The notes beneath the pieces are model-generated. The model worked only from the letters and a program-made list of their open reading frames with translations, ran no database searches and had not been told where the DNA came from. The translations under genes and the position numbers were made by a program. Below are positions 51,942 to 53,150 of a stretch of 64,000 nucleotides of DNA, piece after piece (positions within the stretch are counted from its first letter, which is position 1; every line of letters begins with the position of its first letter). Origin of the DNA: a virus; the UHGV virus genome UHGV-0060833. The stretch is one strand, 5' to 3'.

Positions 51942-53150
51942 TTAATTACTGACAGTTTCAGATTTTGGGAAACTGAACAGTAAATCACGATAGTACTCGT
52001 ATTGTTTCTGGCGCAACTCGATTTCACGCGGGAGACCTTCGGTGATGGAGTTGGTCAGGGTGTCGAATTTATCGAGCAGAGCAGATATTCGCTCTTGTTT
52101 CTGTTTATCAGGCAATGGCACTGGTAATGTTTTTATAATATCTGCATTCAAGTTACTGACCGACCCGCTATTGATTTTACTTTCCCAATAATTTTTCACC
52201 TTTTTTGATGAAAGATAGTGATACAGATAATCAGTGTTTAATTTTTCACCAAAATTGCTGATTGATGCCCATCCATCATGGATAGCTCCGGTTATCCTTA
52301 AAATATATGGTCTGCCAAAGCTCATAGAGTTAGAAATGACGAAATCACCAGGGTTCAAGATTCGCGATTTTTGGGCACCCTCTGCAGTTATTTTTTGTAA
52401 GGTTTTGTCAATGTATTTAGAGCCGGGGATAGTATCTCCGATTTTAATCCATGGGATACCATTTCCTTGTTCAGTAAGATAATTAACAATTGGCCTGGGG
52501 GATGCCCCACGTTGGATTTTGGCTACTTCTCCCAAAGTCTTCCACTCAACCTCACCCTCTTTAAAACTCAACAACTGGTCGCGATAATAGTTGTACTGTT
52601 TTTTACGCATGTTAAGCTCAGCGGTAAGCTCAGCGGTAAGCTCAGCGGTAAGTGCAGTAAATTTATCCAGAATCCGAACGATTTCAGACTGGATGGCAAG
52701 GGACTTTTCCGGGTTGTCCGGGCTAGGAATGGGAACTTTAAATCCTTCCAGCATGGGTTTTCTTATCGAAATGGCGGTAGCACCCACACTTTTTGTCAAG
52801 ATGTACTGCTTAAAGCTAGATGACATGAAGTAATACAAAAACTTCGTGTCTACGGCATTAGTTGTGATACGAATTCTATACGCCCTTTGATGTAGAGCAT
52901 ATTTTCCCTCAACATAGTGAAATATGTCGCCAATTCCACCTTCACCAGGAATGACTATTGCTACCTCATCAAATTCAAAGGTATCTGACTTCAAGATATT
53001 CTTTGAGCGAACATAGAATGGATAAATTCCATTTTCGCTTTCATCCTGACGATTTGAACTTCCAGTACCGATATCTGCCATAGAACCCAATGTTACCCAC
53101 TCAACCTCAACCCCATCCAACAGTTTTTCCAGATAGCTCAGCTCGCTCAT
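51942..53150 (-). CDS. hsdS: Type I restriction-modification specificity subunit
   Basis: 402 aa; two target-recognition domains separated by a central TAEL x3 repeat; 4-nt overlap with hsdM. Confidence 0.85.
52615..52650. repeat. Three tandem 12-bp repeats (agctcagcggta) encoding TAEL x3 in HsdS, plus one degenerate copy
   Basis: Read directly; encodes [17 protein letters not shown]. Confidence 0.9.

What the first reader, a model, noticed from the sequence alone, without database searches (positions are those of the whole stretch)
52615..52650. TAEL x3 repeat in HsdS: a specificity-switching tandem repeat
Three perfect 12-bp tandem copies (plus one degenerate copy) encode [12 protein letters not shown] in the central spacer of HsdS. 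In the EcoR124 family the number of TAEL repeats sets the spacing between the two half-sites of the recognition sequence (as I recall, 2 copies give an N6 spacer and 3 copies N7). Such repeats gain or lose copies by slipped-strand mispairing, so this system may change specificity at appreciable frequency.
Basis: partly seen in the sequence, partly recalled or inferred. Interest (0 to 1): 0.45.

Follow-up and report, generated by a model that had tools for sequence, protein, structure and literature searches.

The report
Known TAEL spacer repeat in HsdS
The repeat is real and is the well-known TAEL "ruler" of an EcoR124-type (type IC) restriction enzyme, here on a P1-like phage-plasmid; sister plasmids whose hsdS gene differs only by one repeat unit show that it does change in nature, but the mechanism has been known since 1989.

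Summary
Confirmed. Three perfect in-frame 12-bp units (ACCGCTGAGCTT, window 52614-52649, minus strand) encode [12 protein letters not shown] in the central conserved helix of a 402-aa HsdS. They sit in an intact hsdM-hsdS-hsdR operon. HsdM and HsdR are nearly identical to EcoR124 (98.8% of their self-scores). Both DNA-recognition domains of HsdS are unrelated to EcoR124's (12% and 22% identity), so the half-sites will not be GAA/RTCG.

Published work shows that 2 units give the short spacer and 3 units give a spacer one base longer. I predict the 3-unit, EcoR124II-like state here.

New evidence:
- Three complete plasmids carry this hsdS with exactly one unit fewer. Across six compared plasmids, a 4.4-kb block (hsdM, hsdS and the start of hsdR) otherwise differs by a single SNP.
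- Copy-number variants on otherwise near-identical HsdS occur in four TRD backgrounds.
- Both 2 and 3 units are common in E. coli.
- Arrays of 4-8 units were nearly always in IS-disrupted or truncated loci.

The switching rate, the motif and enzyme activity are untested. This is an uncharacterised member of a well-known system, of low interest.

The parts
52614..52649 (-). Three perfect 12-bp units ACCGCTGAGCTT encoding TAEL x3 (HsdS residues 168-179)
52613..52652 (-). Full perfectly periodic tract (40 bp, 3.3 copies). It gives 28 bp of homology when misaligned by one unit.
   Evidence: sequence
52650..52658 (-). Degenerate partial unit ACT GCA CTT (TAL), lacking the Glu codon
51942..53150 (-). 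hsdS, 402 aa, type IC specificity subunit (coordinates include the stop codon)
53085..53150 (-). HsdS N-terminal conserved region (aa 1-22), 86% identical to EcoR124 HsdS
52737..53084 (-). HsdS TRD1 (aa 23-138), 12% identical to the EcoR124 TRD1, so a different half-site is expected
52533..52736 (-). HsdS central conserved helix region (aa 139-206) that holds the TAEL array. 62 of 64 aligned residues are identical to EcoR124I; the other 4 columns are the extra TAEL unit.
52095..52532 (-). HsdS TRD2 (aa 207-352), 22% identical to the EcoR124 TRD2
51945..52094 (-). HsdS C-terminal conserved helix region (aa 353-402), 90% identical to EcoR124. Its LDKF..RQKQY spacing is 17 aa, the same as the central helix with 3 units.
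53147..54709 (-). hsdM, 520 aa, overlapping hsdS by 4 bp. Near-identical to EcoR124 HsdM (1154 of 1168 self-score bits).
48704..51820 (-). hsdR, 1038 aa. Near-identical to EcoR124 HsdR (2282 of 2310 self-score bits), aligned 1-1038 to 1-1038.
51885..51914 (-). Promoter-like site (TTAACA-18-TATTTT) in the 121-bp hsdS-hsdR gap. It may be the separate hsdR promoter, but the evidence is a consensus match only.
48488..48510 (-). Terminator-like hairpin (10-bp stem, T-run) about 190 bp downstream of the hsdR stop

Best explanation
The array is the TAEL 'ruler' of a type IC (EcoR124-family) specificity subunit. Each 12-bp unit adds four residues, just over one helical turn, to the central helix. That helix pairs with the C-terminal helix and holds the two DNA-recognition domains apart. 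Three units put the enzyme in the long-spacer, EcoR124II-like state. Its bipartite target should have the same two half-sites as the 2-unit sister allele found on other P1-like plasmids, with one extra base between them (methylated adenines 8 nt apart rather than 7).

The half-sites are set by two TRDs unrelated to EcoR124's and remain unknown.

Copy number changes by replication slippage or unequal crossing-over within the 40-bp perfectly periodic tract. This has happened recurrently in nature, much more often than point substitution in the surrounding genes. It is not shown to reach phase-variation rates.

Shown here: the anatomy, family membership by sequence, natural copy-number variants, and the population distribution of unit counts. 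Taken from the literature: the link between copy number and spacer length. Inferred: that this enzyme is active, its spacer length, and the mutational mechanism.
For: - The repeat is perfect and in frame.
- It lies in the central conserved region of an HsdS that aligns end to end with EcoR124 HsdS. The only gap in that region is one TAEL unit.
- HsdM and HsdR are full length and score 98.8% of their self-scores against EcoR124 structures.
- PMC3874165 states that 2 units give GAA N6 RTCG and 3 units give GAA N7 RTCG. It also reports that EcoDXXI and EcoprrI have 3 units, that hybrid enzymes behave as predicted when the unit count is changed, and that the change arises by unequal crossing-over. 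PMC10644984 converted EcoR124II to EcoR124I by deleting one unit, using primers that match this window's sequence exactly.
- With 3 units, the LDKF..R[KQ]KQY stretch is 17 aa in both the central and the C-terminal helix. In EcoR124I it is 13 and 17.
- Among six compared plasmids (three with 3 units, plus the window itself; three with 2 units), the 4.4-kb hsdM-hsdS-proximal hsdR block differs only by the 12-bp unit and one private SNP.
- pR15_MCR-1 (3 units) and pTA13-2 (2 units) have 0 differences in 4400 bp of left flank, yet each differs from the window (3 units) by 149 SNPs there.
- Copy-number pairs on otherwise near-identical proteins occur in four TRD backgrounds: 2/3, 2/3, 1/2 and 2/3 units.
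- In a spread sample of 60 of 1340 E. coli records, by my count from record spans, about 28 have 2-unit length, about 25 have 3-unit length, 2 have 4 and 2 have 5.
- IMG/VR viral contigs hold 19 exact 2-unit arrays, 8 exact 3-unit arrays and none with 4 or more.
Against: - No methylome or restriction assay exists for this allele, so its activity, half-sites and spacer length are all inferred.
- The switching rate is unknown. The 2-unit protein is stably present on 140 contigs, and the 3-unit allele is identical in isolates from the Netherlands, Viet Nam and a wastewater plant. The array is therefore stable enough to be inherited clonally.
- The hsd block is identical across plasmid backbones that differ by about 3% in their flanks. 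The mismatch between unit count and flanks can therefore be explained by cassette recombination rather than repeated slippage.
- How a one-sided change in helix length is accommodated in the coiled coil is not understood (PMC3874165).
Confidence: 0.85

Rival explanations
1. The array is a true contingency (phase-variable) locus. Within a clonal lysogen population it flips between 2, 3 and 4 units at about 1e-3 to 1e-5 per generation, giving the phage-plasmid a mixed-specificity population.
For: - Closest-relative plasmids differ only in unit count.
- Independent copy-number pairs occur in four TRD backgrounds.
- Arrays have expanded to 5, 6 and 8 units in disrupted loci, which shows an intrinsic tendency to change.
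- From my memory, not verified here: the R124 to R124/3 switch was first seen as a spontaneous event in laboratory cultures.
Against: - Only 3 units are present, so one-unit misalignment leaves 28 bp of homology (16 bp for the 2-unit allele). This is far shorter than typical contingency repeats.
- The two Res13 isolates carry the same 2-unit allele with 0 differences.
- Each allele is found unchanged in many independent isolates.
- No within-sample heterogeneity could be examined here.
Confidence: 0.2
2. The repeat is a frozen allele with no present functional consequence, because the system is inactive or the unit count does not affect this enzyme's specificity.
For: No functional data exist for this allele. 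Some E. coli type IC loci are pseudogenised.
Against: - All three genes are intact and full length against EcoR124.
- Intact-looking loci almost always carry 2 or 3 units, while arrays of 4 or more units are nearly always in disrupted loci. The counts are 21 intact to 5 disrupted against 1 intact to 8 disrupted (Fisher p = 4e-4; the loci are not phylogenetically independent). This suggests the unit count is under selection where the enzyme works.
- Engineered unit changes alter the spacer in three different type IC enzymes (PMC3874165).
Confidence: 0.05
3. The third unit is an assembly or sequencing artefact.
For: None specific.
Against: A 36-bp array is trivially spanned by single reads. The identical 3-unit gene is present in three independent complete assemblies besides the window, and 3-unit arrays are common in E. 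coli.
Confidence: 0.01

Closest known systems
EcoR124II (EcoR124/3) and EcoR124I, the type IC prototypes on plasmid R124
   Same: - Same gene order, hsdM-hsdS-hsdR.
- HsdM and HsdR are near-identical.
- The three conserved regions of HsdS are 86-91% identical.
- The 12-bp unit DNA is identical (the primers in PMC10644984 match the window).
- Three units is the EcoR124II state.
   Different: - Both TRDs are unrelated (12% and 22% identity), so the target is not GAA N7 RTCG.
- The system is carried on a P1-like (IncY) phage-plasmid next to phd-doc, not on R124.
EcoDXXI and EcoprrI (type IC, 3 TAEL units, N7 spacers)
   Same: Three TAEL units in the central conserved region (PMC3874165).
   Different: - In EcoprrI the anticodon-nuclease gene prrC is embedded in the operon (PMC3874165). 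Here hsdM overlaps hsdS by 4 bp and the hsdS-hsdR gap is only 121 bp, so there is no room for prrC.
Phase-variable type I systems: simple-sequence repeats in hsdS (e.g. NgoAV poly-G; the survey in PMC7383803) or invertible hsdS loci (e.g. pneumococcal SpnIV, PMC6265443)
   Same: A repeat-mediated or recombination-mediated change in hsdS alters methylation and restriction specificity without new sequence being acquired.
   Different: In those systems, repeats shift the reading frame or truncate HsdS, or recombinases shuffle TRDs. Here an in-frame 12-bp unit lengthens a helix and changes only the spacer. No high switching rate has been shown.

Membership tests
Type IC restriction-modification (EcoR124 family) | HsdM and HsdR closely similar in sequence to EcoR124 subunits | tested here: met
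   HsdR scores 2282.4 bits against 2w00_A (self-score 2309.6), aligned 1-1038 to 1-1038. HsdM scores 1154.1 bits against 7bst_D (self-score 1168.2).
Type IC restriction-modification (EcoR124 family) | Gene order hsdM-hsdS-hsdR, with hsdR separated from hsdS by a gap holding its own promoter (this operon feature is from my own knowledge, not checked in the papers read) | tested here: inconclusive
   The gene order and the 121-bp gap are confirmed. Only a weak consensus promoter-like match lies in the gap.
Type IC restriction-modification (EcoR124 family) | HsdS layout that starts and ends within the distal conserved helix region, with a central conserved region between two TRDs | tested here: met
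   The N-terminal, central and C-terminal conserved regions are 86%, 91% and 90% identical to EcoR124 HsdS, and the two TRDs are variable. The layout is described in PMC3874165.
Type IC restriction-modification (EcoR124 family) | Genetic complementation and antibody cross-reactivity with EcoR124 subunits (the original family definition) | not testable with these tools
   The definition is quoted in PMC3874165. Testing it needs experiments.
TAEL spacer-length switch (the EcoR124I/II mechanism) | In-frame tandem 12-bp units encoding TAEL in the central conserved helix | tested here: met
TAEL spacer-length switch (the EcoR124I/II mechanism) | Alleles that differ only in unit count exist | tested here: met
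   CP062905, CP062860 and CP069714 carry 2 units against 3 in the window, CP122597, AP027786 and MK256965. The 4.4-kb hsd block is otherwise identical apart from one private SNP in CP069714.
TAEL spacer-length switch (the EcoR124I/II mechanism) | Unit count changes the spacer of the recognised sequence by one base per unit | not testable with these tools
   Established for EcoR124I/II and for EcoR124/EcoDXXI hybrids (PMC3874165). No methylome exists for this allele.
Phase-variable (contingency) locus | Reversible switching at high frequency within a clonal population | not testable with these tools
   Only differences between isolates could be examined.

The most novel reading that the evidence does not exclude
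On P1-like phage-plasmids the TAEL array acts as a real contingency locus. It toggles the restriction specificity of lysogens between two spacer lengths far faster than point mutation. Expansion beyond 3-4 units is incompatible with a working enzyme. Long arrays would therefore either accumulate only after the system is inactivated, or would themselves select for inactivation by insertion sequences, through self-restriction or loss of function. This would explain why 4- to 8-unit arrays were nearly always found in IS-disrupted loci.
Probability: 0.2. Interest if true: 0.4.

Novelty: new member of a known kind. Interest (0 to 1): 0.18.

Why it matters
The mechanism is textbook for type I enzymes, so the finding adds no new principle. 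There are three modest gains.

1. It provides a natural pair for experiments. The 2-unit and 3-unit alleles sit in an hsdM-hsdS block that is otherwise identical, on P1-like phage-plasmids. One of these plasmids, pR15_MCR-1, is named for mcr-1. This pair would be a clean test of the spacer rule outside the three classical enzymes.
2. It corrects a possible impression about which unit count is usual. Both 2 and 3 units are common in E. coli.
3. It suggests an upper limit on the unit count in working enzymes, because longer arrays were seen almost only in broken loci.

For annotation, it means that HsdS proteins 99% identical to each other can have different specificities.

Tried and rejected
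- **Short protein query.** A 73-aa query of the central region, meant to list 3- and 4-unit HsdS proteins, returned only short fragments and was useless.
- **BLAST with artificial arrays.** Queries carrying 4-unit and 1-unit arrays were confounded. BLAST split each match into two overlapping pieces and reported 100% coverage on targets with a different unit count. Identity bands therefore cannot be read as unit counts. I used record spans from a spread sample instead.
- **Top protein homologues.** The top 120 homologues showed almost only 2 units, which at first suggested that 3 units is rare. The DNA survey showed this to be a ranking bias.
- **Pattern scans for 4 or more units.** There were no hits in the species-representative genomes or in IMG/VR. 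The metagenome collection gave four hits.
- **Primary papers.** Gubler et al. 1992 and Murray's 2000 review are not held. My memory that 4-unit EcoDXXI is active but relaxed in specificity could therefore not be verified.
- **Half-site assignment.** No REBASE-like resource was available, so the half-sites of TRD1 and TRD2 could not be assigned.
- **Antisense ORFs.** ORFs on the plus strand overlap the array (52467-52823 and 52591-52833). I dismissed them as mechanical, because the minus-strand frame is a full-length HsdS.

Full report
**1. The observation**

Tandem Repeats Finder reports one array at 52613-52652: period 12, 3.3 copies, 100% matches, no indels. The gene runs on the minus strand. 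Translating 52614-52649 on that strand gives [12 protein letters not shown], and the local context is [21 protein letters not shown].

The 'degenerate copy' is ACT GCA CTT (TAL), a partial unit without the Glu codon.

The exact 12-mer occurs three times in the window. Dinucleotide shuffles give 0.26 matches on average when one mismatch is allowed. It is the only period-12 array in the 64 kb.

**2. What the gene is**

- The array lies in a 402-aa ORF (51942-53150, minus strand) with two Pfam Methylase_S domains.
- The ORF aligns end to end with the EcoR124 specificity subunit, PDB 7bst_A.
- Upstream is a 520-aa HsdM that overlaps it by 4 bp.
- Downstream, after a 121-bp gap, is a 1038-aa HsdR.
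- HsdR scores 2282 bits against EcoR124 HsdR (2w00_A) and HsdM scores 1154 bits against 7bst_D. Each is 98.8% of the protein's self-score.

By sequence this is a type IC system.

Within HsdS, the N-terminal, central and C-terminal conserved regions are 86%, 91% and 90% identical to EcoR124 HsdS. The only gap in the central region is one TAEL unit. The two target-recognition domains are only 12% and 22% identical.

The half-sites will therefore differ from GAA and RTCG.

**3. Replicon context**

The window is a P1-like phage-plasmid. Next to hsdM lie genes for Doc, an Lpa-like activator and PacA/PacB-like terminase subunits. On the hsdR side lie a PmgS-like protein and a polynucleotide-kinase-like protein.

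Records holding the identical hsdS annotate phd/doc, C1 repressor, a Ref family protein and a site-specific integrase (1032 bp, the size of P1 cre), and one is typed IncY. The window also carries three tRNA genes. Iteron-like repeats flank a 286-aa ORF that I take, from memory of P1 and without testing, to be repA.

**4. What is known about the mechanism**

The review PMC3874165 makes these statements:

- EcoR124I has two TAEL units and recognises GAA N6 RTCG. EcoR124II has three units and recognises GAA N7 RTCG.
- EcoDXXI and EcoprrI also have three units.
- Hybrid enzymes with altered unit numbers behave as predicted.
- The change arises by unequal crossing-over.

A 2023 study converted EcoR124II to EcoR124I by deleting one unit. 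Its primers match this window exactly (PMC10644984).

With three units, the stretch between LDKF and R[KQ]KQY is 17 residues in both the central and the C-terminal helix of this HsdS. In EcoR124I the two stretches are 13 and 17 residues. [quoted passage not shown]

**5. Natural variants of this allele**

The identical 3-unit hsdS is present in CP122597, AP027786 and MK256965 (pR15_MCR-1). CP062905, CP062860 and CP069714 (pTA13-2) carry the same gene with exactly one unit fewer.

I compared the window with five of these plasmids (CP062905 has 0 differences from CP062860). Over a 4.4-kb block (hsdM, hsdS and the proximal part of hsdR) the only differences are the 12-bp unit and one private SNP.

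The flanks are more diverged. pR15_MCR-1 (3 units) and pTA13-2 (2 units) are identical over 4400 bp of the left flank, yet each differs from the window (3 units) by 149 SNPs there. Two explanations fit:

- the unit count changed more than once, or
- the hsd cassette has recently moved between backbones by recombination. This is consistent with the reported exchange of restriction-modification systems among phage-plasmids and plasmids (PMC10879196).

In either case, the array has changed at least once in the time that 4.4 kb of surrounding sequence accumulated at most one substitution.

The 2-unit protein (P0001) is on 140 contigs. Both alleles are therefore stably inherited.

**6. The wider picture**

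- **Other TRD backgrounds.** After stripping the array, copy-number pairs on otherwise near-identical HsdS proteins appear in four TRD backgrounds: 2/3, 2/3, 1/2 and 2/3 units.
- **E. coli complete genomes.** A 156-nt central query hits 1340 records. In a spread sample of 60, record spans indicate, by my count, about 28 of 2-unit length, about 25 of 3-unit length, two of 4 and two of 5.
- **IMG/VR viral contigs.** These hold 19 exact 2-unit arrays, 8 exact 3-unit arrays and none with 4 or more units.

**7. Long arrays sit in broken loci (side observation)**

I found ten loci with 4 or more units.

- Eight are visibly disrupted. They show IS1, IS3 or ISEc45 insertions, a truncated hsdS, or a partial or missing hsdM. 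The unit counts are 5, 8, 5, 5, 4, 4, 6 and 6.
- One could not be evaluated.
- One 4-unit hsdS ORF looks intact (L050).

Controls with 2 or 3 units are mostly intact: 5 of 6 randomly chosen chromosomal loci, and about 16 of 20 IMG/VR loci that could be evaluated. Fisher's exact test on 21 intact to 5 disrupted against 1 intact to 8 disrupted gives p = 4e-4.

The loci are not phylogenetically independent and the samples are small, so this is only suggestive. It fits a constraint of 2-3 (perhaps 4) units in working enzymes, with drift to longer arrays once the system is dead. It also shows that the array is intrinsically expandable.

**8. Mechanism of change (inference)**

The perfectly periodic tract is 40 bp, which leaves 28 bp of homology when it is misaligned by one unit. 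The 2-unit allele leaves only 16 bp. From general knowledge of E. coli recombination, 28 bp is near the minimum for RecA-dependent exchange and 16 bp is below it. Replication slippage is therefore the likelier route for 2-to-3 expansion, while unequal crossing-over is plausible for 3-unit arrays. No rate can be derived from these data.

**9. Verdict**

This is an uncharacterised TRD combination of a well-known system, carrying the well-known repeat in its 3-unit state.

Still untested are enzyme activity, the recognised motif, the spacer length and the switching rate. Interest is low. The useful additions are the natural 2/3-unit sister plasmids and the population pattern of unit counts.

Noticed in passing
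window 48704-54709 and flanks; loci L001, L003-L006: The hsdM-hsdS-proximal hsdR block (4.4 kb) is identical in P1-like plasmids whose flanks differ by up to about 3% (149-231 SNPs in 4400 bp). The distal half of hsdR in the Res13 plasmids is a diverged mosaic (71 SNPs in 1.9 kb). This suggests recent recombinational spread of the cassette between backbones.
   Followed up: partly
L007, L010, L011, L012, L013, L014 (E. coli genomes); L049, L051 (metagenomes): TAEL arrays of 4, 5, 6 and 8 perfect units occur almost only in type IC loci disrupted by IS1, IS3 or ISEc45, or otherwise truncated. One 4-unit hsdS (L050) looks intact.
   Followed up: partly
window 25725-25803 and 26833-26937, flanking ORF 25916-26776 (-): Two clusters of iteron-like repeats (units of about 21-31 bp containing CAGCACACAT / ATGTGCGCTGG) flank a 286-aa ORF. 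They look like the P1-type repA replicon with its incC and incA iterons. The adjacent 403-aa and 321-aa ORFs would be parA and parB. All of this is from memory of P1 and was not tested.
   Followed up: no
window 6613-6716, inside the 1246-aa ORF 5116-8856 (-): A perfect 51-bp tandem duplication (2.0 copies, 100% match). It is in frame (17 codons) within a very large ORF of unknown identity.
   Followed up: no
window 33493-33646 and 35078-35153 (+): Three tRNA genes (Asn, Thr, Met-CAT). ARAGORN reports the Asn anticodon as ATT, which is unusual and may be worth checking.
   Followed up: no
window 57369-58562 (+) compared with L003 (AP027786) 3251-5782: The window is identical to AP027786 over 11.2 kb around hsd. 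AP027786, however, has ISVsa5 inserted in the pacA-like terminase gene, while the window's ORF is intact. The window therefore comes from a closely related but different record.
   Followed up: partly
window 47933-48439 to 54886-55487: The hsd cassette sits between a polynucleotide-kinase-like gene next to pmgS and the phd-doc addiction module. From my memory of the P1 map, this position holds pmgT through humD in phage P1. If so, the cassette replaces a block of P1 genes.
   Followed up: no
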